Positions 4,034 through 51,257 of a DNA stretch of 64,000 nt are shown piece by piece. The notes under the pieces are model-generated. The model searched no databases, was not told the DNA's origin, and was given only the letters and a program-made list of their open reading frames with translations. The stretch's first letter is position 1, and each line of letters opens with the position of its first letter. The position numbers were made by a program, and so were the translations under genes. The stretch lies in IMG/VR virus record IMGVR_UViG_2690316068_000002; one strand, given 5' to 3'. The DNA comes from a virus. Lineage: Duplodnaviria; Heunggongvirae; Uroviricota; Caudoviricetes.

Positions 4034-4678
4034 CTAATGAACGGTTACTCGGCCACAGAACCGGTTTTCTATCTTTTCTACAGCGTTATCTAGCATTCTC
4101 ATCACTGATCTGGCTCTTGCTTCAACCGTGCGATATCGGTTGGAAACGACGAAGGTTTGCAGATCTCCCCTTTGCGGATGCAGGTGAATTTTTGTCAGTT
4201 CCCCGCACATCAACGCATCAATACGAGCGACATACAGACGGTCTAATGATGCTCGTTGTGATCGCAAGTAATCTCGCTCTGAGAGAGCGACCCCCGGGCG
4301 TAGGCCAGCAATGGCGTTAAAGTTTGAAATAGCAGTTTTGTGGCAAAACTTTTCGATATCGAGGGCTAACTCAATACACCGATCTTCATTTGTATGGCCA
4401 ACCAAATCCAACGTGTAGGCCATAACATCAGCAGGTGTGCGATCGATAACAAAGCCTTCAACACCACGTGTAAGTAGCTCTATATGCTTTGCTATTTCCA
4501 TTTGAATCTGAAGCCGCTCATATAGAGGCATAGACTCACCTACTCGAACACCGAGGCGGCTCATCAAACTTCCGACACCAGCATCCACGTAAGGGATTCC
4601 GTAATGTTTGTCGATATATTTAGCCAGGGTTGTTTTCCCACTGCCCTGAGCACCAGTGATCCCAATCCGGTAATCCAT
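4034..4678 (-). CDS. P-loop nucleotide kinase, putative deoxynucleoside monophosphate kinase
   Basis: Walker A GITGAQGSGKTTLAKY at N-terminus; sits in nucleotide-metabolism cluster next to DHFR/ThyA. Confidence 0.55.
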   Translation of the reverse strand: MDYRIGITGAQGSGKTTLAKYIDKHYGIPYVDAGVGSLMSRLGVRVGESMPLYERLQIQMEIAKHIELLTRGVEGFVIDRTPADVMAYTLDLVGHTNEDRCIELALDIEKFCHKTAISNFNAIAGLRPGVALSERDYLRSQRASLDRLYVARIDALMCGELTKIHLHPQRGDLQTFVVSNRYRTVEARARSVMRMLDNAVEKIENRFCGRVTVH

Positions 4679-15962: not shown

Positions 15963-16075
15963 GTGTTTTTCCTTTGTGGTTATTTTGATACAGATATTAA
16001 GTGTGTTTGAGAGGCGAACAATCCAGATAACACGGCCATTAAGAATGTTCACAGACACATGATTATGGCAAATTC

Positions 16076-16095
16076 ATAGGTAAGTGAATACCTAT
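16076..16095. promoter_or_regulatory. promoter-proximal palindrome ATAGGTAAGTGAATACCTAT
   Basis: Member of recurrent palindrome family; ~115 nt upstream of sbcD start. Confidence 0.4.
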
Positions 16096-16188
16096 TTTTA
16101 TGGGCAGCAAAGATTTCTAGATGTTACAAGCCACTCTATAATCGCAGTCACTTAATGATGACAACCAAACGAAAAAGGAGAACTGACG

Positions 16189-16692
16189 GTGAAACGCGTA
16201 ATTATAGGGACGATGGCCATTGCTCTGATCGGATGCGTACCAAAACCACCTCAAGATGAAAAGTCAGCTGGCGGGTACGTTGATATTTACTCCACTTCAA
16301 GCGTAGCAATTGCCCAAGACAGAGCCGACAAATTGTGTGGAAGCCATGCCTATTATGTCTCTAACGACAATGATTTAACCAAAGTCATGGGTAGATACGC
16401 GCCTTCATTCCCAAAAATCAGGTTCAACTGTGATCTTGAAATGGCCGCTTATCTGGGCAGCAAAGAGGCAAAGGAGATCAAAATGAAACGCATAGAGGAA
16501 GCCTACAAGGAGATGTACAAGGCCCAATATGAGCTGAAAGAAGTGCGCCGTAAGAACGCTGATCCGAAGAAGCTGGAGTCTTACACAGAACGCGATCCGG
16601 ACGGTACTATTCGCAGCTACAGCTTCTTGAATGGCAAGTCGTGCGAATCAATCGTGTACCCAGACGGCACGGGCAAAACGACTTGTGATTAA
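16189..16692 (+). CDS. putative lipoprotein
   Basis: Signal peptide with lipobox LIGC; plus strand amid minus-strand genes; followed by terminator. Confidence 0.6.
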   Translation: MKRVIIGTMAIALIGCVPKPPQDEKSAGGYVDIYSTSSVAIAQDRADKLCGSHAYYVSNDNDLTKVMGRYAPSFPKIRFNCDLEMAAYLGSKEAKEIKMKRIEEAYKEMYKAQYELKEVRRKNADPKKLESYTERDPDGTIRSYSFLNGKSCESIVYPDGTGKTTCD

Positions 16693-16701
16693 TTCTTCAG
16701 G

Positions 16702-16733
16702 AGCACCTCGTATGGGGTGCTTTTTATTTTGGG
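16702..16733 (+). terminator. rho-independent terminator
   Basis: AGCACC-tcgtatgg-GGTGCT followed by TTTTTATTTT. Confidence 0.6.
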
Positions 16734-16735
16734 TC

Positions 16736-17164
16736 GCGAAACAGCATGTCGGCCATTTGCGAGGATTTGACGTAGCACTTTGCCATCATCGGCTGACTAG
16801 GGTTTGATGCGATCATGTCGGACACCAGCATTGACCCATAGCCTTTTCCGCGAAGCTCTTTGACAATACTGACGGCACGGAGTTCAAGTCAAGGTGCGCC
16901 AGTCGGATCGAGTGCGGCACAGAACCAGATTAGTCCTACTTTTTGTCATCAGAACGATGCAGCAGGATGTAGATAAAATGCCCGGAGTATTGGCCCCGCT
17001 CGTTCGTCTTGATTGCCAGTCTGGTCTGCTGCTCAAAGGTTTTACCCCCCCTTTGATGTGAGGATCTCTTCGTAGAAGTGACCTTTGCGTGCGCCGTCCT
17101 CGAACTCAGCCATGATAAAAGGCATGTCTGTCACAGTTGCTGCCCTTGAATAAAATTCACTCAT
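16736..17164 (-). pseudogene. disrupted GNAT-family N-acetyltransferase
   Basis: Minus-strand fragments in three frames: MSEFYSRAATVTDMPFIMAEFEDGARKGHFYEEILTSKGG*, FEQQTRLAIKTNERGQYSGHFIYILLHRSDDKK*, ELRAVSIVKELRGKGYGSMLVSDMIASNPSQ...; the RGKGYGSML block is GNAT motif A; no intact ORF. Confidence 0.45.
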
Positions 17165-17239
17165 GTATTAATCCTAAAAGCCCTCAGTGTCTTTCTAATG
17201 CACCATATTTTATGCCTCGGTTAAACCCTGAGATTACGT

Positions 17240-17884
17240 TTAAAACGTCTCAGTGGGCTTTTTACGCGCTGCGTTTATGCTTATGACGCCAGCTTTTGGA
17301 CGTGGGTCAACAAGGTTAAGCTCTTCTTCACTGTGGTATTCGAGGTCGAACTCACGTTTTACATGTCTGATGTAGATTGCGGTGAGCAGGCTATCTTTGG
17401 TCAGAAAGTGTCCGTAGGATTTGCGGATCACTTCTTCTACCTTCTCGATTTTCTCACCACCCATACAGAGATGATTAAACCGGCTGTGTTTCCGCAACAT
17501 TTCGTCTACTGGGCCTGAGTAAACCTTGTCTACTTTCCCAAAACGGATGATTTTCCCTGTGTCTGCGGATACGAGGCAAATCAGCTTGTCTGGTGATAAA
17601 CGATCTCGCCACGTCACACCTGAACGGAGTGTGTTGAAGTAGGGAGCATCCAATCCGATGATCGGTTTACGAAATGCGAGTAATGGAACGTACCTGATGC
17701 AACTGTTTAAATGAAAATTCACACCAGCCTTATCAAGTTTAATTCTGGTTTCGTAGATCGGGCACTTCGCCGCTATACCGCAGATGTCACAAAGCAACTT
17801 CTGCTTATTCAGGTTGGAATTCGATTCGATAGTGTAGGAGCCGTCTTCAAGACGACGAACCCAGCGCGTGCGTTTTAGATCCAT
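17240..17884 (-). CDS. hypothetical protein
   Basis: 214 aa ORF divergent from the replicon. Confidence 0.5.
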   Translation of the reverse strand: MDLKRTRWVRRLEDGSYTIESNSNLNKQKLLCDICGIAAKCPIYETRIKLDKAGVNFHLNSCIRYVPLLAFRKPIIGLDAPYFNTLRSGVTWRDRLSPDKLICLVSADTGKIIRFGKVDKVYSGPVDEMLRKHSRFNHLCMGGEKIEKVEEVIRKSYGHFLTKDSLLTAIYIRHVKREFDLEYHSEEELNLVDPRPKAGVISINAARKKPTETF

Positions 17885-17971
17885 ATGTCATTTTTCTGTG
17901 ATTGTTAGCCGAGGCAACGATAACCCACCAGGTGCGCCGAAGGTAGTAAATGCCTGTTTTAATTATTCACA

Positions 17972-18044
17972 TTATCCACAGGATAGATCCTAATAAAGAG
18001 ATCCATAGATAGATCCTTGTATAGATCAAATAAGATCCCCGATC
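17972..18044. promoter_or_regulatory. origin-associated DnaA box plus GATC cluster
   Basis: TTATCCACA (17972-17980) matches DnaA box consensus; six GATC sites at about 17986, 18000, 18012, 18024, 18034, 18041. Confidence 0.6.
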
Positions 18045-18084
18045 GCTGTAAGCCGCGCCACGACTGGTCTGAAGCCATGTTCAT

Positions 18085-18186
18085 GTATGCTGTCAGCGGT
18101 AATTGATAGTCTGTCAGCGGTTCACCGTATGCTGCCAACTGTTTTTGGTATTCTGTCAGCGGCAAATCAAGTATGCTGTCAGCGGT
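18085..18186. repeat. iteron array upstream of repA (5 copies)
   Basis: GTATGCTGTCAGCGGT-like 16-mers at about 18085, 18107, 18127 (degenerate), 18148, 18171. Confidence 0.8.
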
Positions 18187-18206
18187 TGAATGACAAAGGT
18201 GTCCAC

Positions 18207-19301
18207 ATGTCCACAAAAAATAAAAAAGGTAAAAATAACAAAGAAGTAGAAGATAACATCGACAACTTTGAAGAAGGTTCCCTTGAATTGTACACAGGGG
18301 AACTTGTCCCTAATAGCAACAATACAGTCCAACCAATTGCGTTGATGCGACTGGGGTTGTTCGTCCCCACGCTTAAGGGAACAAAATACAGTAAACGTAA
18401 CAAGCCAAATGAGATCGATGCTTCAAAGGAGCTTGTCCAGCTCGAAGTAGCCCGTTCTGAAGGCTATTCCGATATCAAGATAACCGGCCCTCGCCTGGAC
18501 ATGGATCATGATTTCAAAACGTGGGTGGGCGTTGTGCGTTCGCTGGCAGAATACGGCGAACCTAATGGTCGTGTCGAGTTAAGCATCACGAAATTTGCGA
18601 AGTTTTGTGGCTATCCATCGTCACAGATCCGCAAAACACTCCGCGACCGGCTTACAAACAGTCTTTTGAAGATCATGCGTACAACTCTGTCTTTCCAGAG
18701 AACGTATGAAGAAAAGAACGTCGACGGCTCTAACAAGATCTCGCTTCTGATGGTGCACCTCATCAATAGCGTGGACTACAACGAGCAGAAAGATACGGTG
18801 GTGTTCTATGCAGAACCGAAGCTGGCCGAACTATATCGCTTTGACCATAAGGTTCTTTTGCAGTTAAAGGTTATCAATAAGCTACCACGCAAAGAAACAG
18901 CACAGGCTCTGTACACCTTCATCGAAAGTCTTCCAACCAAGCCTGCGCCGGTATCGCTTGCTCGATTGCGTGCGCGACTCAATTTGAGTAGCAGGAATGT
19001 CAGCTCGCAGAATCAGACTATACGTAACGGCTTAAAAGCTCTCCAAGATTTGGGCTATCTCGAATACAGCGAGATTAAGCGTGGGCGGTCGATCTATATC
19101 CAGATTCACAGCCGCAATCCAAAACTCAAAGTCGCACCGCCAAAACCTGAAGACATCGAACCCAAAAAACCAGATGAGAAAGCTGGGGAAATTGATGCCA
19201 AACAGAACATTATCAACAAGATAACCGAACTTTCGCAGAATTTGACGCCTGAAAATATCAAGATGATTGAGATCCTTTCCAATAGTCTCAAACTGCTTTG
19301 A
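18207..19301 (+). CDS. repA: plasmid-type replication initiator (RepA-like)
   Basis: ORF 18087..19301 trimmed to ATG at 18207 (AAAGG RBS; longer ORF would run through the iterons); assignment rests on flanking iterons, DnaA box and GATC cluster, not on recognised protein motifs. Confidence 0.6.
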   Translation: MSTKNKKGKNNKEVEDNIDNFEEGSLELYTGELVPNSNNTVQPIALMRLGLFVPTLKGTKYSKRNKPNEIDASKELVQLEVARSEGYSDIKITGPRLDMDHDFKTWVGVVRSLAEYGEPNGRVELSITKFAKFCGYPSSQIRKTLRDRLTNSLLKIMRTTLSFQRTYEEKNVDGSNKISLLMVHLINSVDYNEQKDTVVFYAEPKLAELYRFDHKVLLQLKVINKLPRKETAQALYTFIESLPTKPAPVSLARLRARLNLSSRNVSSQNQTIRNGLKALQDLGYLEYSEIKRGRSIYIQIHSRNPKLKVAPPKPEDIEPKKPDEKAGEIDAKQNIINKITELSQNLTPENIKMIEILSNSLKLL

Positions 19302-19418
19302 TATGCTGTCAGCGGTGAAATGTATGCTATCAGCGGCTATTTTTCTGAAAAGTATGCTGTGAACGGTTAAAGATATGCTACCAGCGGTATAGTGAGATAA
19401 ACGTATGCTGTGAGCGGT
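19301..19418. repeat. iteron array downstream of repA, cluster 1 (5 copies)
   Basis: 16-mers (G/A)TATGCT(G/A)(T/C)(C/G)A(G/A)CGG(T/C) at about 19301, 19322, 19342, 19373, 19403. Confidence 0.8.
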
Positions 19419-19577
19419 AAATCATCTATCACCACTCAATGCTCTGGCATACCTCCCCAGTGGTTACTAACCTCGAAGAGTGCATTCCATATAGGTTTGC
19501 GCTCACTAACATTCTATTGCCGTTGCGCTGATTGCTTGTAGTGAAAGGCATTTATTGCCTGCTGCTCCCTGATAGAA

Positions 19578-19832
19578 CGTATGCTGTCAGCGGTGTTTTA
19601 TTGAGGAATTTTTGTTTGGATATGCTATCAGCGGTAATTAATGGTATATGTCAGACCTTCGTATGCTGCCAGCGGTAATTTTGTTCTGGTTATACCCATA
19701 CCGGTACACATTATTCATGCAATGTCTTAAGTATGCTGTCAGCGGTAAAAAATCGAGTAAAGTATGCTGTGAGCGGTGAGATAAACTCTCGATATGCTAT
19801 CAGCGGTAATTGATTGTGTATGCTGTCAGCGG
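19578..19832. repeat. iteron array downstream of repA, cluster 2 (7 copies)
   Basis: Same 16-mer family at about 19578, 19619, 19660, 19730, 19761, 19791, 19817. Confidence 0.8.
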
Positions 19833-19845
19833 TGACGACTATGAA

Positions 19846-19867
19846 ATATGACTGCGGCACGTGCCGC
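19846..19867. repeat. perfect 22-bp palindrome GACTGCGGCACGTGCCGCAGTC
   Basis: Seen directly; sits at end of iteron field between convergent units; hairpin or protein-binding site. Confidence 0.6.
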
Positions 19868-19880
19868 AGTCAGTTTGCAT

Positions 19881-26111: not shown

Positions 26112-26543
26112 TCAACGGGGAGTAATAAAGCGTTCAGAGCCTAATCGCTCTAATTCAACGATGGCCATCTTTGACGCCTGAACGATCATGTCTCGGCGAT
26201 GCGAAAAGGCGGCGACAGCATGTTTGTATATGTCTGCGATGTGCCGTGCTTCATCCAACTTCTGCCGTTTAGACAGATACTGTGGGTTTGTTTTAACCTT
26301 AGCGTCCAGTACAGACTCGTTGAACTTAATGCCGTTCATACTCAAGTTCTTACGCTCTGTGTCGTATAGCTTTGCTTCAACAGCTTCAAGGTTAAGTTTT
26401 GCCTCTGCGACATCTCGATCTGCCTGCGCTAGTTTTGACCCATACTCCATTAAAAGCCGTGGCTGTTTACGCCATACTTCCTCAAGGTTGTCGCGGTCGA
26501 ACTCCAGATCGGCCATGATTTTAGAAAAAATATCAGTGTTCAC
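26112..26543 (-). CDS. hypothetical protein
   Basis: 143 aa ORF. Confidence 0.5.
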   Translation of the reverse strand: MNTDIFSKIMADLEFDRDNLEEVWRKQPRLLMEYGSKLAQADRDVAEAKLNLEAVEAKLYDTERKNLSMNGIKFNESVLDAKVKTNPQYLSKRQKLDEARHIADIYKHAVAAFSHRRDMIVQASKMAIVELERLGSERFITPR

Positions 26544-26797
26544 TCTAATAGGTTCCTACTTATAAAATCTGTATCAATTATATCAAACAGAGAACGGGTT
26601 TATGGCGTCATGTCAACTTTGTTCAGGGGAAAATATTGAGATCACCGAAGATAATTAGTTGTCTTATTTTGGTAAGCTGTGCTGACCATCTTTAGGTCAC
26701 ATACATGAGATGGATGGGGGTGTGGCATGAACGGATGAAATTCAGTCGCCGTTGACAGATGTCAACACTGTGAATAGAATACTATTATCGGAGGCGA

Positions 26798-27022
26798 ATG
26801 AAGCAACATCCGAATAAGCATATTCAAGCAGCCATTGACTATGCATTAAGTAAAGGCTGGATCTGGGTAGCTGCTGGTGGTGCTGCACATTGTTTTTGCA
26901 GACTGCGATGCGGTAATCCAGAAGGTGAACACAAAACTCACCAAATGAGCGTATGGTCGACTCCGGGTAATCCCGAAAACCATGCCAAACAGATCAAACG
27001 AATGGTTGATCGTTGTAAATGA
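26798..27022 (+). CDS. small Cys/His-containing protein, possible HicA-like toxin
   Basis: 74 aa; KGW-x-GG-x-H...H-x-MSVW-x-PG pattern loosely resembles HicA/YcfA fold; followed by hairpin. Confidence 0.4.
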   Translation: MKQHPNKHIQAAIDYALSKGWIWVAAGGAAHCFCRLRCGNPEGEHKTHQMSVWSTPGNPENHAKQIKRMVDRCK

Positions 27023-27028
27023 TTTCAA

Positions 27029-27050
27029 GGCGGCATTAGCCGCCTTTTGC
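27029..27050 (+). terminator. hairpin with T-run between the two plus-strand genes
   Basis: AGGCGGC-atta-GCCGCCT-TTTG. Confidence 0.4.
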
Positions 27051-27082
27051 AGAAACTGTCCAACTATCTTCAAAGGAAAACT

Positions 27083-27646
27083 ATGGCGCTTTATAACTTC
27101 ACTCTGACGCTCTCAGGCGTATCGTATGAGACGGAAGGACTGGAAGACGCGCTGTACCAAAACGGCTGTGACGATGCGCTAATTTGCGCATATGGAAACT
27201 CCGTCTATGTAGAATTTGACCGCGAAGCACAATCACTTGATGCAGCTATCGCATCTGCGGTCGACAATATTGAATCAGCCGGTATCGGTGCAATTGTTGA
27301 ATCCGTCGACTCGGCTCTTGTGGGCTTAAGCGATATCGCGGAACTGACAGACCTGTCTCGCCAGGCAGTGGCGTTGCTCAAAGACGGTAAGCGCGGAAGC
27401 GGCGACTTCCCTTGCCCTGTACAACGCATAAAAGGCCAGTCTCCTCTCTGGGATTGGGCTGATGTGGCTGAATGGCTCATGAATAACGGACGACTTAAAG
27501 AGGGCGATCAAATTGTCCAAAATGCCCGAACTTTGAGTAAATGGAATCTGGCGCTTCGAAACAGCGTCTCGAAAGATTTCAACGAAATAGAGCAAATTGC
27601 GGAGAAACTGATTAAACGCCGCAAAGATATTGCGAAATGCGCATAA
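27083..27646 (+). CDS. hypothetical protein with C-terminal helix-turn-helix, possible HicB-like antitoxin
   Basis: ORF 27047..27646; ATG at 27083 preceded by AAGGAAA; HTH-like IAELTDLSRQAVALLKDG. Confidence 0.4.
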   Translation: MALYNFTLTLSGVSYETEGLEDALYQNGCDDALICAYGNSVYVEFDREAQSLDAAIASAVDNIESAGIGAIVESVDSALVGLSDIAELTDLSRQAVALLKDGKRGSGDFPCPVQRIKGQSPLWDWADVAEWLMNNGRLKEGDQIVQNARTLSKWNLALRNSVSKDFNEIEQIAEKLIKRRKDIAKCA

Positions 27647-27975
27647 TGATGCCCGCCAATTGGCGGGCATCTGTTCTCTGTAAAGGTGTCTGGCATCGTC
27701 TGGTTCGTTAACGTTTACTAAACCAATGGTGACAAAAATTAGTTATCTTTGAAAAATAAAGGTTGCATGAAAAGAAGGGGTATGCGTTAATAGCATCGTT
27801 GGTTTGCAAGACAGACCTTATGTAAGCAGTTTTAGTAAAGCAGTCTCAGTTCAGTGTTATCTTCTGATTTCCCTTCTTCGTGAGTCTCCTCCTTAAGTGC
27901 CTAAGTAAGTCCCAATCTATACAGATCAAATTCTCGCCGCACTATGTGGCTCACAAAATTAAGAAGGTAATATCT

Positions 27976-28191
27976 ATGTCTAATAAAATGACTGGTTTAG
28001 TAAAATGGTTTAACTCTGATAAAGGCTTTGGCTTTATTTCTCCTGCTGATGGCAGTAAAGATGTTTTTGTACATTTTTCGGCAATTCAGAGTAATAATTT
28101 CCGCACTTTGGAAGAAGGCCAGCAGGTCGAATTCTCTATCGAGAATGGGGCTAAAGGCCCAGCAGCAGCAAATGTCGTTGCTCTAAGTTGA
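27976..28191 (+). CDS. cold-shock protein (CspA family)
   Basis: [71 protein letters not shown] is near-identical in pattern to E. coli CspA/B/G; RNP1/RNP2 motifs present; AAGAAGG RBS; long leader. Confidence 0.9.
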
Positions 28192-28461
28192 TTCAACGCT
28201 GATGATCCTCATTTCTACAATAACGAAGACGGTGTAAGCCTGAGTGGATAGATTTGTAGGATTGTACAAGTTGAATAAATTAGCATGGTAAGGCCATGCT
28301 AATTAAATCGACACAACGGCCAGTTTATTCCATAAAAGTGAATTGCCCATTGTGGCGAAATGCGGGGTTGCCGCATGAATAGTCAAAGGCAGAAGCTAAC
28401 TGCCGGCATGGCAAAACAAAGTGCGTAAGAGGAGTGACTTCCTCAACAAGCGCCATAATTC

Positions 28462-28490
28462 TTTATAAACCCGCCAACAGGCGGGTTTTC
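28462..28490. terminator. bidirectional terminator
   Basis: CCCGCC-aaca-GGCGGG with T-rich tracts on both sides. Confidence 0.6.
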
Positions 28491-28494
28491 TTTA

Positions 28495-31400
28495 TTACTT
28501 ATTTATTGTCTCCGCGATATCAGCCAGAATGGCCTCCAGTCGCTCTCCTTCTTCCGGTCGGAAGTACAGGATATTCGGGTTAAATCCGTAGAAGACGGTT
28601 GCATCAAGCTCTGGGAAGTACTCCTTACGACCAATCAGATCTGATGGTTTACTCTTATTGTTAAATAGTGCGGTTGAACGACTACCACACGTCAAAATGT
28701 AGGTCGGACGCACCAGATTGATCTCTTCACGCATAAAGTCGGTGAACTGGCCGATCTCGTCTTTGGTGTAGTCTTTTTCTTTGTCTTTAACCTTCTTGCA
28801 AACGCCTGTGACATAGAGATCGCCCATGCGTAAATCTCCAGCCGTCAATAGCTTGGCCTTAAAGTCGTCGTATCCGTTCTCCATGAAGTAACCGGTTCGA
28901 GCATCATTGCCGTTCGCATTGTCCAGAATGATCATGATTTTCGGCTTAATACCAATGTTGGGGCGGATTAGTTCATCACCTAAGCCCATTTCAGCCGCCA
29001 TCCGTGTCATGAGCACGTTAATCTCAGCCGAACGTTTGGGGTTCATCTCAAACGGACGTGAGGCTTTAACTGCGTCTATGACAAGGTTTCCCATCAATTC
29101 AGCCTGGTCGCGTAGGCGCTCTGGATCAGTTGCTGGCAGACTACCTGGCTCGATGGATGCAAACGCCCCTACTTTTTGCAGCGATTCGCGCACTCGACTA
29201 TTACAGGCACGTTTCTCGACAGCTTCTTCGAATTGCGCCAGTGACTCGAATTTGCCGCCAACTTTTTCTCGCGCTCTCATGATGGCTTGGCAGCCATTCT
29301 CAGAACACCCCTTCACAGCAGAGAAGGGCGCATACAGCACCTGGCTGCCATCTTCAAGCGTGCGGATCTCGATTCGGTTAGATGACACGTTAACGTCTGG
29401 TGGCAATACGCGAATACCATAGGTCAGCGCATCTTTAACCAGCCCCTGGTGTTTATCTTCGCCAAGAATAGTGAGAGCAGCAGCGAAAAACTCTGCGGGA
29501 TAATGAGTTTTCAACCACATAGATTGATAACTGATTAAGGAGTAGGCAACAGAGTGTGATTTATTGAACTGGTAGGCACCATTTTTTTCGAATGCGGTCC
29601 AGATCTCCTTCGCTTTCATCTCTGATAGCCCTGGATGTGACGCTGTAACGCGTACTGCGTTTATAGGTAGTTTTGCGCCGTGCTCAAGTGCCTCTTCGAC
29701 AGTTTTCAGAGTTCCGTCTTCGCATTTAAAATGTTCCGCACGGTGAATGCGCTGTGTAGTGCCATCTTCCAGCTCAACGTCTATCCAGCCAGCTTGAGCC
29801 TGAACGATGAACTTCTCGCCCATGCTCTTCATTTTTTCCATGTTCTTCTTACCGATTGCGGAACGCACACCGTCAGCTTCAGCCATTGTGAAGCCGGCAA
29901 GCAATCGAGTCGCGTTCATCGTCTGTTCCTGATAGAGAATCACGCCATTTGTTTCCGCGGTAAGTTCATCAAGAACGGGGTGTAATGATTCCGGCGTCAT
30001 AAAGCCTTTGGCGACAGAAACATAGTCGTCCAACATGCCGGATTGGATCGGGCCAGGTCGGAAGAGTGCGGTCGTGGCGACAACGGTTTTAAAGCTCATT
30101 GGCTCAATGCCACCGCCTAGATCTTTAAGCAGCTTGCGCATGGGGCCGGACTCCAGCTGGAATACGCCCTGTGTATACCCTGCAGCAAAACCATCCAGCA
30201 CCTTGCGATCTTCAAGAGAAATGGCATCAAGATTGATATCTTCACCTGTGTTCTCTTTTATGTAGCGTTTTGCACTATCGAGCAAATCGAGAGTTGCCAG
30301 GCCAAGCACGTCCAGCTTAATTAGGCCCATAGCCTCGCAGTAACGCTTGTCAAATGCGATACAACGCGCGTCACCACGGCGCTCAACCGGTGTACGTTCT
30401 GTCAGAGGAACACCTGCTACAATCATCCCTGCCGCATGTCTACCAAAGCCACGCATAAGGCTTTGTAACTTGCAGGCTGCATTGAATGCATCAGGATATT
30501 TTGTTGCGTATTTGTCGAGACTTGCCAGTTGTTCGCGCAGCTCTTCCAATGGAAGGCTATCATCCTCGACGTTCTTCAGTTCTTTTGATACCGCCATATC
30601 TGCGGACTCCACACCATAAATACGAGCGGTGTCACGTAGTGCAGAGGCTGCGCCCAGGTAGGTGAAGTTCGGAATGCCTGCAACGTAATCTTCGCCGTAG
30701 CGTTCATTCAGATACTCGATCACCTCATGGCGACGTGCCTGGCTGAAGTCCAAGTCCGCATCCGGCAAGTCGAGACGCTCAGGGTTGATGAAACGCTCAA
30801 ACAGAAGACCGTGACGGATTGGGTCGACGTTGGTTATGCCTATGCACCACGCCACCAGAGAACCGGCAGAGGAACCACGACCAGGCCCGACAGGAATGCC
30901 AGTTTCACGGCTGTGATTCATCAGATCGCGTACCATCAGGAAGTAACCACAAAATCCCAGGCGAGTCAGCGTGTTCATTTCGTACTTTAGCCGCTCAACA
31001 TAAACCCTGTTCTCAGAAGCAGGTGGTGTGTATCCAAACTCTTTTGTGGTAAGACGTTTACGCAGCCCTGCAACAGCCAGTTTCATCAGCGTTGCAGGTT
31101 CGTCGTCTGCCATCTTGGGCAGTGCTGGTGGCAATTCATGCCAGCGCCATGTGCAGGCATCGATAATGGAGTCCTGCGTTGTTGAGGCCATTGCAGCTGT
31201 TACCGGCACATCCATGCGAACGGAGAAGGCTTTAAGCGCCTCAAGGAGATGGCGACGACCATTGATGGCGTTATCTCGCTGGTGGGGGATACGCAGACGA
31301 TGCGGCTGGTCGATTTTTATGTTGTTCGTAACCATGTGCGCAATGTCTTTAATGTCTGCATCGTCGATCGATTCGTAATAAGCGGGATAGAACGCTACTG

Positions 31401-37811: not shown

Positions 37812-37892
37812 TAGACGTCGTTTTTTAAATTTTAAGGTAAACAGGAGTGAGTTTGGTGGGGAATAAAAAACGGCTCCTGTGAGCCGTTAAAA

Positions 37893-38141
37893 TCAGAGGG
37901 TGCTGACGTATGCAGCCAGTTCTGTGTATCCGCCAATCGGCTGGCCATCGATCAGCACCTGGGGGATAGTCTCTACCGGTTTATCAACAATTTCACTTAG
38001 TTTTTCCTTGTCGATACCGGCAGTGGTGATGTCGATGTACTCATAATCACCGTAGCCATGTCCCTTTAGTTGCTTCGCCAGCTCAACCGCACGTTTGCAG
38101 TATGAGCAGTTATCTCGTCCGTAGATAACGACTTTCATCAC
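37893..38141 (-). CDS. glutaredoxin-like protein (NrdH/Grx)
   Basis: CSYC redox motif after VVIYGRDN beta strand; 82 aa. Confidence 0.75.
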   Translation of the reverse strand: MMKVVIYGRDNCSYCKRAVELAKQLKGHGYGDYEYIDITTAGIDKEKLSEIVDKPVETIPQVLIDGQPIGGYTELAAYVSTL

Positions 38142-38263
38142 TTCACCTCGTGCAACTGCTGTTCATTAACGATGATTGTGTCAATTTCGTAGCCGTGGAT
38201 GCGTGGCTTTGGCTTCACTGCCTGACGAGCTGCGCGACGCGCCTGTTTACGTTTGTTTCCCAT
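38138..38263 (-). CDS. small basic protein (41 aa)
   Basis: ORF 38138..38323 trimmed to ATG at 38263 (AAAGGA RBS); the longer ORF would start inside the upstream palindrome; ATGA overlap with grx. Confidence 0.35.
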   Translation of the reverse strand: MGNKRKQARRAARQAVKPKPRIHGYEIDTIIVNEQQLHEVK

Positions 38264-38310
38264 ATAGAGTCCTTTCAAGTGAGTAAGTGTCGTGACTATA
38301 GCTAAAATGA

Positions 38311-38330
38311 ATAGGTGAGTCATTACCTAT
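38311..38330. promoter_or_regulatory. promoter-proximal palindrome ATAGGTGAGTCATTACCTAT
   Basis: Member of recurrent palindrome family. Confidence 0.4.
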
Positions 38331-38469
38331 TTAATGTGTTTGGTTACTAAGCAGAAATGGCTTTGTGAGGTTGACACATTAGAAACGGCAAGACAGCTTT
38401 AAACTAGCTGAAATGGTATGGTCGATTAGGTATCATTCAGTTTCAAAATTAACCAAAGACACTGATAAA

Positions 38470-39702
38470 ATGCCTGTTTTGTTAATCCTCATACTTGGGA
38501 CAGTGATGATTATTTTCTGGGATACCGTCAAGGAAAACGTAGAGGTCATAGGTACACTTGCCACTTCACTTGCATTTTTCGCCACAGCATGGGCCGCTTA
38601 CGAGGCAAGGCATAGTGCAAAGGCAGCAATGAGGGCCACTAGGCTGACGGCAGCTTCACTCCTTGAAATGAAAAAAGCCTCTTTTAAGGAATGGTACGGC
38701 ATATTACTTGAACAGCATAATAGATTACTTGAGGATGTTAACAAGACCTTGCAGGATGATAGGGAACTTAATGCAAAACTGGGAACGAATCTCATCAAGG
38801 CTATTTATTACCATGTAACCAAAAACTCCGTTTACATTAAATATATTAACCACATAGTTTTAATTCTTGATTATTTAGATAAAGACTTCTATTCGCCGTC
38901 ATCAGCCGATTATGAAAAGAGAGCTTACATAGAACAGCTGCGCAACAGCATTAGTCCTAATGTAAGCCTGCTGATAGCTACATTCGGCCTTAATATTGAC
39001 ACTAATAAAACCTATGACGCAAAGAGGCTTTACAGCCTGCTAAGCAAGTATAACTTCTTCGAAGGCCAACTTTTTTTTGAAGAAGCAATATCGAAAGTTC
39101 ATTATTTGGACTCTTATGCTGCTGTGATATTTGATAACGAATACCGAAAAGATGTAGAGTTTTATGTTGAAGAAATGGTTCGAGGTCGTGAGACCCCTAA
39201 AATCGATTCAAGATATCGTCATTTAAGGGCTACGTTCGCAATTCTGTGGTCTTACAACAACCCCTGCCGACAACATTTGCTTCAAAGATTTAATGACCTA
39301 CCTATGCATATGCGAAACAGCATTGAGCTGAGGATGGAAAATGCAGCCGATAAAGTAGCTGAGTTCAACTCTTTGTTACTTGGTTTTATAGGCTGGGAGC
39401 TTAGAATCGCAGGTAATAAAGTGAGGGTGATCAAGGATGAAAAACATTTAAAGAGGCTAATAAAACTCAACGATAAGTATCCAATTCCCCCCCGAGAGAA
39501 AGGTATTCTGTTAACCAATGGTTTCACCAATAGATTCGCTGATGAGATTAAAAATAGTCTGTCTATGTATAAGTTAGAAAATGCCTATTTAGCACTCAAC
39601 TCTAATCAACACAAAGAAAAGGTGATTGATGAAATTGTTGTTGAAGTTGAGAAAATTGTCGATAAATTTAAAGCAGAACTTGATTCTTTGGATTTCAACT
39701 AA
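38470..39702 (+). CDS. low-GC membrane-anchored protein of unknown function
   Basis: ORF 38413..39702; two N-terminal TM helices; K/N/I/Y-rich composition unlike neighbours; plus strand; followed by terminator. Confidence 0.55.
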   Translation: MPVLLILILGTVMIIFWDTVKENVEVIGTLATSLAFFATAWAAYEARHSAKAAMRATRLTAASLLEMKKASFKEWYGILLEQHNRLLEDVNKTLQDDRELNAKLGTNLIKAIYYHVTKNSVYIKYINHIVLILDYLDKDFYSPSSADYEKRAYIEQLRNSISPNVSLLIATFGLNIDTNKTYDAKRLYSLLSKYNFFEGQLFFEEAISKVHYLDSYAAVIFDNEYRKDVEFYVEEMVRGRETPKIDSRYRHLRATFAILWSYNNPCRQHLLQRFNDLPMHMRNSIELRMENAADKVAEFNSLLLGFIGWELRIAGNKVRVIKDEKHLKRLIKLNDKYPIPPREKGILLTNGFTNRFADEIKNSLSMYKLENAYLALNSNQHKEKVIDEIVVEVEKIVDKFKAELDSLDFN

Positions 39703-39707
39703 GCAAA

Positions 39708-39737
39708 AAGGGGCCGAAGCCCCTTTAATTATTTGCG
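39708..39737 (+). terminator. rho-independent terminator
   Basis: AAAGGGGC-cgaa-GCCCCTTT followed by AATTATTT. Confidence 0.6.
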
Positions 39738-39881
39738 CTGAAAAAAGTGTTGCTAGGATGTTAGCAAGCTATGGTTAAGAACGTCTGCCGCAATTGTCTA
39801 TCACAGCGTTGAGCGGTCTGGTTTATGTTAGCGGAGTCTTAATCTGGGTGATTAAAAGGCCAAACCGCTCAACGCTGTGTC

Positions 39882-39968
39882 TGGCGGAGAGTAATGGAAT
39901 CGAACCATCATCGCTTGCGCAATGGGACGGTTTTCAAGACCGCTTGAGCACCATGCTCCCTACTCTCC
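39882..39968 (-). tRNA. tRNA-Ser (anticodon UGA), type II with long variable arm
   Basis: Minus-strand GGAGAGT...CTTGAAA...GGTTCGATTCC...ACTCTCCGCCA; 7-bp acceptor stem, T-loop TTCGATT, anticodon loop CUUGAAA; D-arm atypical. Confidence 0.6.
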
Positions 39969-40181
39969 AGTTGTTGTGGTGCCGGGGGCTTCCCGGTGTC
40001 CTTTGGCTGGTTATCCACCGTGGACGGAGCCAATAGTCATCACAAAGGATCAATATAACCATTTCCCCGCGTGCGCTTAGCCGCATTCACCACAACGAAA
40101 AGAGCACTGTATGACGTTTGCACGGACTTACGCTTAAAACAGGGCAGTCTCGGCGGTTCTCAATGCTCTTTCCTGTTGTGT

Positions 40182-40257
40182 TGGTGCCGGTTAACGGATT
40201 CGAACCGCCGACCATTCGCTTACAAGGCGACTGCTCTACCAACTGAGCTAAACCGGC
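40182..40257 (-). tRNA. tRNA-Thr (anticodon UGU)
   Basis: GCCGGTTTAGCTCAGTTGGTAGAGCAGTCGCCTTGTAAGCGAATGGTCGGCGGTTCGAATCCGTTAACCGGCACCA; perfect acceptor stem; canonical D and T loops. Confidence 0.8.
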
Positions 40258-40261
40258 AATT

Positions 40262-40348
40262 TGGTGGGGAGTGATGGAGTCGAACCACCCGAGTCGCAAT
40301 GACAGTAGATTTACAGTCTACACCGCTACCTCTACGGACTAACTCCCC
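40262..40348 (-). tRNA. tRNA-Tyr (anticodon GUA), long variable arm
   Basis: GGGGAGT...GTAGACTGTAAATCTAC...GGTTCGACTCC...ACTCCCCACCA; anticodon loop CUGUAAA. Confidence 0.7.
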
Positions 40349-40353
40349 TAAAT

Positions 40354-40428
40354 TGGCGATGGTGGGTGGATTCGAACCACCGACCAGTTGGTTAACAGCC
40401 AACTGCTCTACCGCTGAGCTACACCATC
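40354..40428 (-). tRNA. tRNA-Asn (anticodon GUU)
   Basis: GATGGTGTAGCTCAGCGGTAGAGCAGTTGGCTGTTAACCAACTGGTCGGTGGTTCGAATCCACCCACCATCGCCA; perfect 7-bp acceptor stem. Confidence 0.8.
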
Positions 40429-50340: not shown

Positions 50341-50458
50341 AATTTGATAATGCACACGTAATGGGCTATAGCCTTTTAAAGTAATTTTTGAGTCGAAAAC
50401 TCAGTTTGAACAGAGGAGATTGATGGCCTTCCTACATCACGGCCATCAGGAGGAATAC

Positions 50459-50728
50459 ATGTCAGCACTAAAAAAGCAGCGCATCGATTTGAGATTAACC
50501 GATGACGATAAAAGCATCATCGAGGAAGCTGCCGCAATGTCTAACCAGAGCATTACTCAGTTTATGGTTAGCAGTGCATCTGAACGTGCCGTGAAAGTTA
50601 TAGAGCAACACCGTAGACTAGTTCTGAATGAAGAATCCTGGAATCTGGTTATGGACGCTATAAGCAATCCTCCGGCACCGAACGACAAGCTGAAACGAGC
50701 TGCTGATCGTCTGAAAAGCATGGAGTAG
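50459..50728 (+). CDS. DUF1778-family antitoxin (TacA/KacA-like, RHH)
   Basis: ORF 50420..50728 trimmed to ATG for MSALKKQRIDLRLTDDDKSIIEEAA (AGGAGG RBS), a typical DUF1778 antitoxin N-terminus. Confidence 0.75.
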   Translation: MSALKKQRIDLRLTDDDKSIIEEAAAMSNQSITQFMVSSASERAVKVIEQHRRLVLNEESWNLVMDAISNPPAPNDKLKRAADRLKSME

Positions 50729-50735
50729 TTTACTC

Positions 50736-51257
50736 GTGAGCAATACAACGATAGAGATTTTCTCTGGAGAGAAAGATTATGATCTAAACGGTTTTGATTG
50801 CGGCGAAGAGTCACTAAACGCCTTTTTAGCCAACCACTTAAAAAGGCAGCATGAGGGAAAAATTCTTCGTGCTTATGTGCTTTGCACTCAAGAAGAAAGG
50901 CCAAAAGTGTTAGGATATTACACTTTGTCAGGTAGTTGTTTTGAAAAGGAGTCCTTACCTTCAAGAAGCAAACAAAAGAAGGTTCCTTATCGGAATGTTC
51001 CAAGTGTTACTTTGGGTAGGCTGGCTTTGGACAAGTCCCTTCAAGGTCAAGGATTTGGCTCAATGCTTGTAACACATGCAATGCGCGTTGTGTACAATGC
51101 ATCTCTTGCTGTAGGCATTCATGGACTTTTCGTTGAGGCGTTAAATGACAAAGCCAAGGCGTTTTATAAAAGTTTAGGCTTTATCCAGCTGGTTGGTAAC
51201 AACGAGCGTTCTTTGTTCTATCCTACAAAATCTATCGAAAAATTGTTCGAAGAATAA
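50736..51257 (+). CDS. GNAT-family acetyltransferase toxin (TacT/KacT/AtaT-like)
   Basis: 173 aa, 8 nt downstream of antitoxin; GNAT motif A LQGQGFGSMLV; C-terminal AFYKSLGF; non-ATG start. Confidence 0.75.
   Translation: MSNTTIEIFSGEKDYDLNGFDCGEESLNAFLANHLKRQHEGKILRAYVLCTQEERPKVLGYYTLSGSCFEKESLPSRSKQKKVPYRNVPSVTLGRLALDKSLQGQGFGSMLVTHAMRVVYNASLAVGIHGLFVEALNDKAKAFYKSLGFIQLVGNNERSLFYPTKSIEKLFEE

What the first reader, a model, noticed from the sequence alone, without database searches (positions are those of the whole stretch)
16736..17164. Decayed GNAT acetyltransferase gene next to the replicon
Minus-strand translation gives clear GNAT fragments (motif A RGKGYGSML) split across three frames by frameshifts and stops, in a region with no intact ORF. 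It could be a remnant of a second acetyltransferase toxin or resistance-type GNAT, indicating gene turnover at this locus; sequencing error is the alternative.
Basis: seen in the sequence. Interest (0 to 1): 0.45.

Follow-up and report, generated by a model that had tools for sequence, protein, structure and literature searches.

The report
Dead GNAT acetyltransferase gene on phage-plasmid
This is a real but ordinary dead copy of a small acetyltransferase gene, carried in a variable accessory slot of an SSU5-like phage-plasmid of E. coli; it was recently inactivated by four mutations and is not the relic of a toxin or a resistance gene.

Summary
Window 16724-17164 (minus strand) is the orthologue of the intact 164-aa GNAT gene of Salmonella phage SSU5 (SSU5_071). 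It is about 90-93% identical in DNA to intact copies on Salmonella, Enterobacter and Citrobacter phage-plasmids.

It carries four lesions:
- G6 to G7 (+1)
- A6 to A5 (-1)
- a CGA to TGA nonsense codon
- a 54-bp in-frame deletion between ATGCT repeats, which removes the family's most invariant block (MLKRRGF...)

The homologous protein sequence uses two reading frames, not three.

Eight independent E. coli plasmid records share the last three lesions; only the poly-G length varies among them (G7, G8 or G9). Sequencing error is therefore excluded as the cause of inactivation.

dN/dS against intact copies is 0.10-0.12, the same as between intact copies. Only two missense changes are unique to this copy. 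The inactivation is therefore recent.

The slot is variable and occurs in four states: GNAT plus lipoprotein gene, GNAT alone, dead GNAT plus lipoprotein gene, or neither.

The toxin idea is not supported. There is no antitoxin neighbour and no similarity to AtaT, KacT or TacT. A genuine TacA/AtaT-like pair sits elsewhere in the window (50420-51257). No resistance-family match was found. The substrate of the intact enzyme is unknown. Interest is low.

The parts
16724..17164 (-). Pseudogene of the SSU5_071-type GNAT N-acetyltransferase (441 nt left of an ancestral 495 nt)
   Evidence: Alignment to intact genes of SSU5, Salmonella pCFSAN059543 and Citrobacter pRHBSTW-00444_2. Megablast at 90-93% identity.
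17162..17175 (-). Retained start codon (17162-17164) and AGGA ribosome-binding site (17172-17175)
   Evidence: Read from the sequence. Identical to the intact orthologues.
17045..17051 (-). Lesion 1: poly-G tract G7 (G6 in intact SSU5 and Salmonella genes). The +1 frameshift gives a premature TAA at 17042-17044.
   Evidence: The tract is G7, G8 or G9 in sister E. coli plasmids. It is interrupted (GGGTGG) in the intact Citrobacter gene.
16940..16944 (-). Lesion 2: A5 tract (A6 in intact genes). The -1 frameshift returns to the original frame. In the shifted frame a TAG follows at 16936-16938.
   Evidence: Shared by all eight sister records.
16889..16891 (-). Lesion 3: nonsense codon TGA, where intact genes have CGA (Arg92)
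   Evidence: Shared by all eight sister records.
16835..16852 (-). Surviving GNAT motif A (R-G-K-G-Y-G), the acetyl-CoA pyrophosphate-binding loop
   Evidence: G106, K107, G108 and G110 are invariant in the family alignment.
16743..16747 (-). Lesion 4: junction of a 54-bp in-frame deletion between two ATGCT direct repeats. It removes residues 140-157 (MLKRRGFHLFDTSPKGTQ).
   Evidence: The deleted block holds the invariant MLKRRGF, P, G and Q columns. In the model it covers the end of helix 4, strand 6 and the start of strand 7.
16699..16724 (+). Intrinsic-terminator-like hairpin plus T-run of the convergent lipoprotein gene. It abuts the pseudogene's stop codon.
16189..16692 (+). Intact convergent 167-aa gene (orthologue of SSU5_072, PHROG 18989). 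It has a lipoprotein-type signal peptide with an LIGC lipobox and is the second accessory gene of the slot.
   Evidence: Absent from Enterobacter and Citrobacter elements and from PhiR41_1.
16002..17249 (.). The 1.25-kb accessory slot. Escherichia phage PhiR41_1 has an unrelated 225 bp here, between flanks that are 98-99% identical to the window.
17240..17884 (-). Upstream core gene, 214 aa (orthologue of SSU5_070, PHROG 2105). It is not an antitoxin.
18087..19301 (+). Replication initiator (Rep3_N domain; RepB family in related records): 'the replicon'

Best explanation
The region is a recently inactivated and now non-functional copy of an orphan accessory GNAT N-acetyltransferase gene (SSU5_071 / PHROG 15387 family). 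It sits in a variable slot between two core genes of an SSU5-like phage-plasmid: a 214-aa gene and the SbcD-like metallophosphoesterase gene. Four mutations each disable it. Slippage in a G-run (+1) and in an A-run (-1), and a CGA to TGA transition, are typical spontaneous events. A 54-bp deletion between 5-bp direct repeats removes the most conserved part of the protein. No reading of the poly-G tract can restore a product. The lesions are inherited within one E. coli lineage of these elements. Other E. coli elements have lost the whole slot, whereas Salmonella, Enterobacter and Citrobacter elements keep the gene under purifying selection. Shown here: homology, the lesions, their inheritance, the slot's variability and the GNAT fold of the intact protein. 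Inferred: the gene became dispensable in the E. coli lineage and is decaying neutrally; the acceptor substrate of the intact enzyme remains unknown.
For: The lesions were mapped by alignment to three intact orthologues and placed at exact coordinates. Eight independent E. coli plasmid records from Korea, China, Ecuador, the UK and elsewhere share the A5 tract, the TGA and the 54-bp deletion. The deletion removes invariant columns M140-F146, P153, G155 and Q157. dN/dS of the window copy against intact copies is 0.10-0.12, compared with 0.08-0.10 between intact copies. Only Q56R and R69H (R69 is an invariant column), plus R92*, are unique to this copy. Inactivation is therefore recent. The intact orthologue is a GNAT: Pfam Acetyltransf_1 scores 21.0 against a cut-off of 20.7; PHROG 15387 'acetyltransferase' matches at 4e-106; the AlphaFold2 model has pLDDT 91.7 and the canonical strand and helix order; 616 PDB chains match at E<=1e-3, and the top matches are all GNATs. 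Slot variability is shown. The RefSeq annotation of sister plasmids has no feature here.
Against: dN/dS gives no positive sign of relaxed constraint, as expected if inactivation is recent, so the case for 'pseudogene' rests on the lesions alone. No intermediate carrying only some of the lesions was found, so the order of events is unknown. The start codon and ribosome-binding site are intact, so a 40-aa N-terminal peptide could still be made. Expression was not tested. The Pfam match of the family is marginal.
Confidence: 0.93

Rival explanations
1. The gene is intact in the real plasmid and the disruptions are sequencing or assembly errors, chiefly homopolymer indels.
For: Two of the four lesions lie in homopolymers (G7, A5). 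The poly-G length differs among otherwise near-identical records (G7, G8 or G9), as expected for long-read homopolymer error.
Against: The CGA to TGA substitution and the 54-bp deletion are not homopolymer errors. Together with the A5 tract they are identical in eight independently sequenced plasmids. Even with a corrected poly-G the gene remains dead.
Confidence: 0.02
2. It is the remnant of a second GNAT-type toxin (TacT, AtaT or KacT class) whose antitoxin has been lost.
For: It is a small GNAT of about 164 aa on a plasmid-like element that also carries a genuine GNAT toxin-antitoxin pair. AtaT appears among the structural matches, at rank 17.
Against: Intact orthologues stand alone in every context examined: SSU5, Salmonella, Enterobacter and Citrobacter elements, and E. 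coli IncK/I-type plasmids next to IS remnants. The upstream gene has no TacA/DUF1778 or RHH domain and persists without the GNAT. phmmer against the PDB finds no toxin at E<=1. The only similarity to the window's real toxin is 27 residues around motif A. An unpaired, intact toxin under purifying selection would be lethal.
Confidence: 0.03
3. It is the remnant of an antibiotic-resistance GNAT (of the AAC(6'), streptothricin or phosphinothricin acetyltransferase type).
For: GNAT fold. Phosphinothricin acetyltransferases are among many equally weak structural neighbours. Phage-plasmids can carry resistance genes (PMC9600943; title and abstract seen).
Against: NCBIfam, which includes the curated resistance models, gives nothing near a cut-off. 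The best match is 16 bits against a cut-off of 344, and ArsN2 scores 14.6 against 125. Structural neighbours are 8-19% identical and spread over many subfamilies. The family is narrow, with 27 clusters mostly on contigs of about 100 kb.
Confidence: 0.03
4. The poly-G tract is a phase-variation switch, and the gene is reversibly switched off rather than dead.
For: The tract length varies among sister plasmids (G7, G8 or G9).
Against: No tract length restores an open frame, because of the A5 frameshift, the TGA and the deletion. The tract is not conserved in intact genes: GGGTGG in Citrobacter, and KVG or KGC in other family members.
Confidence: 0.02

Closest known systems
SSU5_071 (YP_006906703) acetyltransferase of Salmonella phage SSU5, and its orthologues on pHCM2-like, Enterobacter and Citrobacter phage-plasmids (e.g. 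WP_138657007, WP_001288958); PHROG 15387
   Same: Same position between the 214-aa gene and the SbcD-like gene. 90-93% DNA identity. The same start codon, ribosome-binding site, stop codon and motif A.
   Different: The window copy has two frameshifts, a nonsense codon and a 54-bp deletion, so it cannot make the 164-aa protein.
AtaT/KacT/TacT GNAT toxins with TacA-like (DUF1778) antitoxins
   Same: GNAT fold and similar size. A real example lies in the same window at 50420-51257.
   Different: The pseudogene's family has no antitoxin partner and no sequence similarity beyond motif A, and the structural match is no better than to any other GNAT.
Generic small GNATs of known structure (C. glutamicum HPA2-like 2QEC, SpeG, RimI/RimL, Naa60, phosphinothricin acetyltransferases)
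   Same: Shared fold. Foldseek E about 1e-7 to 1e-8, TM-score 0.6-0.72.
   Different: 8-19% identity and no clearly closest subfamily, so the acceptor substrate cannot be inferred.

Membership tests
GNAT (GCN5-related N-acetyltransferase) superfamily | Profile match to a GNAT Pfam family at or above the gathering score | tested here: met
   The intact orthologue scores 21.0 bits on PF00583, cut-off 20.7, so the match is marginal. The frame-corrected window sequence scores 20.5, just below. PHROG 15387 'acetyltransferase' matches at 4e-106.
GNAT (GCN5-related N-acetyltransferase) superfamily | Motif A, Q/R-x-x-G-x-G/A, the acetyl-CoA binding loop | tested here: met
   R-G-K-G-Y-G at 16835-16852. 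G106, K107, G108 and G110 are invariant in the family.
GNAT (GCN5-related N-acetyltransferase) superfamily | Canonical fold: b1-a1-a2-b2-b3-b4-a3-b5-a4-b6-b7 | tested here: met
   The AlphaFold2 model of orthologue P0001 has pLDDT 91.7 and this order of elements. 616 PDB chains match at E<=1e-3, and the top matches are all GNATs. The window copy itself lacks a4(end)-b6-b7(start) because of the deletion.
GNAT (GCN5-related N-acetyltransferase) superfamily | Acetyl-CoA-dependent acyl transfer | not testable with these tools
   Needs biochemistry on the intact SSU5_071 protein.
Pseudogene (non-functional relic of a protein-coding gene) | Full-length homology to intact genes, together with disabling lesions | tested here: met
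   Two frameshifts, one nonsense codon and one 54-bp deletion of invariant residues.
Pseudogene (non-functional relic of a protein-coding gene) | Lesions are real, meaning reproducible in independent sequences | tested here: met
   Lesions 2-4 are identical in eight other E. coli plasmid records. The poly-G tract is variable.
Pseudogene (non-functional relic of a protein-coding gene) | Relaxed selective constraint | tested here: inconclusive
   dN/dS is 0.10-0.12, the same as between intact genes. There is one unique change at an invariant column, R69H. This is consistent with very recent inactivation.
Type II GNAT/RHH toxin-antitoxin (TacAT, AtaRT, KacAT) | Adjacent upstream TacA/DUF1778 (RHH) antitoxin gene | tested here: not met
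   The upstream 214-aa gene has no such domain. There is no partner in any context of intact orthologues. By contrast, window 50420-50728 matches TacA1 at 8.6e-26.
Type II GNAT/RHH toxin-antitoxin (TacAT, AtaRT, KacAT) | Sequence relationship to characterised toxins | tested here: not met
   No PDB toxin matches at E<=1. The in-window toxin matches 6GTS, 6AJM and 5ZGN at 1e-75 to 1e-79. The pairwise comparison aligns only 27 aa around motif A.
Antibiotic-resistance acetyltransferases (AAC and related) | Match to a curated resistance model above its cut-off | tested here: not met
   Every NCBIfam hit lies far below its cut-off.

The most novel reading that the evidence does not exclude
The SSU5_071-type GNAT may be a host-specific accessory factor of SSU5-like phage-plasmids. 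It is kept under purifying selection in Salmonella, Enterobacter and Citrobacter elements but repeatedly lost (deleted or pseudogenised) in E. coli elements. The pseudogene would then mark a recent host shift or a change in the selective value of an unknown acetylation target. Less likely, the retained 5' end (ribosome-binding site, ATG and a 40-codon ORF) or the hypervariable poly-G tract has acquired a new regulatory role.
Probability: 0.2. Interest if true: 0.3.

Novelty: new member of a known kind. Interest (0 to 1): 0.1.

Why it matters
It matters little beyond annotation. The pseudogene is not annotated in the RefSeq records of sister plasmids. Recording it documents a small accessory-gene slot in SSU5-like phage-plasmids, next to the replication region, where genes are gained, lost and decay. 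It also prevents the fragment being read as a second toxin or a resistance determinant. The shared lesions are a convenient lineage marker for one E. coli clade of these elements.

Tried and rejected
1. I looked for intermediate alleles with the lineage-specific sequence context around the nonsense site and either CGA or TGA. Scans of IMG/VR viral contigs, JGI metagenome contigs and GTDB genome contigs gave no hits. PLSDB has no record in the 95-99% identity band. The order of the lesions therefore stays unknown.

2. I tried to infer the substrate of the intact enzyme. NCBIfam, PADLOC and a PDB sequence search gave nothing specific. Foldseek against the PDB gave only generic GNATs.

3. I checked for a hidden RNA element. 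Rfam finds nothing at gathering thresholds in 16000-18000.

4. I checked whether the upstream 214-aa gene could be an antitoxin. It has no domain (ASCH at E=0.15 only) and is present where the GNAT is absent. Rejected.

5. The promoter scan found nothing above the shuffle expectation (2 sites found, 3.6 expected).

6. A literature search found no paper that characterises this GNAT. One paper reports a KacT-type toxin on the SSU5-like element Cyrano of E. coli LF82 (PMC9928086). That corresponds to the other GNAT in the window, not to this one.

Full report
**Context.** The window is part of an SSU5-like phage-plasmid of E. coli. It is about 98% identical over most of its length to E. coli plasmid pE16EC0562-7. 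It carries the typical replication and nucleotide-metabolism genes of such elements, including nrdAB, thyA, dnaE and SbcCD-like genes. SSU5-like phage-plasmids are a described group (PMC7969092; PMC9928086).

**The observation.**
- On the minus strand an ATG at 17162-17164, preceded by AGGA, opens a reading frame that gives MSEFYSRAATVTDMPFIMAEFEDGARKGHFYEEILTSKGG and stops.
- The homologous sequence continues in the +1 frame: GGKTFEQQ...HRSDDKK, then a stop.
- It then returns to the first frame: VGLIWFCAALDPTGAP, stop, LELRAVSIVKELRGKGYGSMLVSDMIASNPSQPMMAKCYVKSSQMADMLFRDPK, stop.
No intact ORF covers the region.
- The fragments use two frames in three segments, not three frames.

**What it is homologous to.**
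- Megablast finds the region at about 90% identity in Salmonella phage SSU5, where it is the annotated acetyltransferase SSU5_071 (495 nt, 164 aa).
- It is also found in about 170 plasmid records of Enterobacter, Salmonella, Citrobacter, Klebsiella and others, annotated as 'GNAT family N-acetyltransferase'.
- The gene order is the same in all: Rep gene, 214-aa gene, GNAT, then (in SSU5 and Salmonella) a convergent 167-aa gene, then SbcD-like and SbcC-like genes.

**The lesions.** They come from alignment with three intact orthologues, with coordinates.

| # | Change | Window position | Effect |
|---|---|---|---|
| 1 | G6 to G7 | 17045-17051 | +1 shift; TAA at 17042-17044 |
| 2 | A6 to A5 | 16940-16944 | -1 shift; TAG at 16936-16938 in the shifted frame |
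| 3 | CGA to TGA | 16889-16891 | Arg92 to stop |
| 4 | 54-bp in-frame deletion between two ATGCT repeats | junction 16743-16747 | removes MLKRRGFHLFDTSPKGTQ |

- In an alignment of 16 family members, the deleted block contains the longest run of invariant residues: M140 to F146, plus P153, G155 and Q157.
- In the AlphaFold2 model of the intact orthologue it forms the end of helix 4, strand 6 and the start of strand 7.
- Each of the four lesions alone is likely to be disabling.

**Real or artefact.**
- Three PLSDB records are 100% identical over 701 nt. Four more are 99.4-99.9% identical. One further RefSeq plasmid is 99.6% identical over a 551-nt query.
- They come from human blood in Korea, a giant panda and a rabbit farm in China, human faeces in Ecuador, and UK cattle and sheep. 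One record gives a chicken source with no country.
- All eight records aligned share the A5 tract, the TGA and the 54-bp deletion. Only the G-run differs: G7, G8 or G9.
- The pseudogene is therefore inherited and is not a sequencing error. The G-run variation may be true slippage or homopolymer error, but it cannot change the verdict. With G9, which is in frame, the A5 shift still ends the frame after about 76 codons.
- The RefSeq annotation of the sister plasmids shows no feature here.

**Age.**
- dN/dS between the frame-corrected window copy and the intact genes is 0.10-0.12. Between intact genes it is 0.08-0.10.
- Only Q56R and R69H, besides R92*, are residues not seen in any of 14 full-length homologues. 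R69 is an invariant column.
- Most of the 7-10% divergence from the known intact copies therefore accumulated while the gene was still selected, and the inactivation is recent.
- No intermediate allele was found in PLSDB, complete E. coli genomes, IMG/VR, JGI metagenomes or GTDB genomes.

**The locus is a variable slot.** Four gene contents occur between the same core genes.

| State | Where seen |
|---|---|
| GNAT plus 167-aa lipoprotein gene | SSU5, Salmonella |
| GNAT alone | Enterobacter, Citrobacter |
| Dead GNAT plus lipoprotein gene | the window and its sister plasmids |
| Neither | Escherichia phage PhiR41_1 |

- In PhiR41_1, window 16002-17249 is replaced by 225 unrelated bases between flanks that are 98-99% identical to the window.
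- 369 plasmid records match a 701-nt query that includes the ends of both flanking genes. Only 183 match the GNAT itself. About half of the records therefore match only flanking sequence and lack the GNAT.
- The same GNAT also occurs alone, next to IS remnants, on E. coli plasmids of other replicon types such as IncK2/Z.
- The window is identical to pE16EC0562-7 across the slot but diverges sharply beyond about 17800. It carries a different replication initiator: Rep3/RepB type, where that record has a gene annotated repA and is typed IncFIB. These elements are therefore mosaic around this point.

**What the intact gene is.**
- The family is narrow: 27 clusters at 57-98% identity, mostly on contigs of about 100 kb.
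- It just reaches Pfam's GNAT threshold and has its own PHROG, annotated acetyltransferase.
- The AlphaFold2 model is confident (pLDDT 91.7) and has the GNAT topology.
- Foldseek finds hundreds of GNAT structures. None stands out: HPA2-like, SpeG, RimI/RimL, Naa60 and phosphinothricin acetyltransferases, at 8-19% identity and TM-score 0.6-0.72.
- The acceptor substrate is therefore unknown. NCBIfam, PADLOC and a PDB sequence search give nothing specific.

**Toxin or resistance gene?**
- The window does contain a genuine GNAT toxin-antitoxin pair. A TacA-like antitoxin lies at 50420-50728 (Pfam TacA1, 8.6e-26). It is followed 8 nt later by a 173-aa GNAT at 50736-51257 that matches AtaT and KacT structures at 1e-75 to 1e-79. 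An SSU5-like element of E. coli LF82 is reported to carry such a KacT-type pair (PMC9928086).
- The pseudogene's family differs in three ways. It has no antitoxin neighbour in any context. Its upstream gene lacks an RHH/DUF1778 domain and persists where the GNAT is absent. Its only sequence similarity to the in-window toxin is 27 residues around motif A.
- The toxin reading fails its defining tests. No curated resistance model matches.

**Verdict.** This is a real, recent, unannotated pseudogene of an orphan accessory GNAT in a variable slot of an E. coli SSU5-like phage-plasmid. It is ordinary gene decay. The mutational steps (slippage, a transition, and deletion at a microhomology) are read directly from the alignments. 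The claim that the gene became dispensable in this E. coli lineage is an inference from the distribution of intact, dead and absent states.

Noticed in passing
window 50420-51257 (+): An intact type II GNAT toxin-antitoxin pair. The TacA-like antitoxin is at 50420-50728 (Pfam TacA1, 8.6e-26). The AtaT/KacT-like toxin is at 50736-51257 (1e-79 to PDB 6GTS and 6AJM, 4e-75 to KacT 5ZGN).
   Followed up: partly
window 17800-19880: Replicon mosaicism. The window has a Rep3_N/RepB-family initiator (18087-19301), 99.8% identical to E. coli plasmid NZ_CP014490. Plasmid pE16EC0562-7 carries the 100% identical dead-GNAT module but has a different initiator (annotated repA; typed IncFIB). Sequence identity collapses beyond about 17800-18073.
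   Followed up: partly
window 16189-16692 (+): A 167-aa accessory protein with a lipoprotein signal (MKRVIIGTMAIALIGC, lipobox LIGC). It belongs to PHROG 18989, of unknown function. It is present in SSU5 and Salmonella and absent from Enterobacter, Citrobacter and PhiR41_1 elements, so it varies independently of the GNAT.
   Followed up: partly
window 17045-17051: The poly-G tract inside the pseudogene is G7 here but G8 or G9 in near-identical sister plasmids. This is either genuine slippage in unconstrained DNA or homopolymer sequencing error.
   Followed up: partly
window 27798-28215 (+): A full-length match to the Rfam cspA thermoregulator (187 bits, gathering score 78), overlapping a cold-shock-domain ORF (27880-28191; Pfam CSD, 4e-33). 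This is a cspA-like gene, with its RNA thermosensor leader, carried on the phage-plasmid. The region (about 26522-28529) is not matched by megablast in pE16EC0562-7.
   Followed up: no
window 40182-40428 (-): A cluster of three tRNA genes: Thr(TGT), Tyr(GTA) and Asn(GTT).
   Followed up: no
window 38413-39702 (+): A 429-aa ORF with no Pfam match. It lies in a stretch (about 37830-40352) that is not matched by megablast in the otherwise 98%-identical plasmid pE16EC0562-7.
   Followed up: no
L016 (NZ_CP060062.1) 4069-4563: An intact member of the same GNAT family sits alone on an unrelated E. coli plasmid, flanked by IS4 and IS66 remnants, with a serine acetyltransferase gene downstream. The gene therefore moves between plasmid types. 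Other intact copies are on IncK2/Z-typed plasmids (L015).
   Followed up: partly
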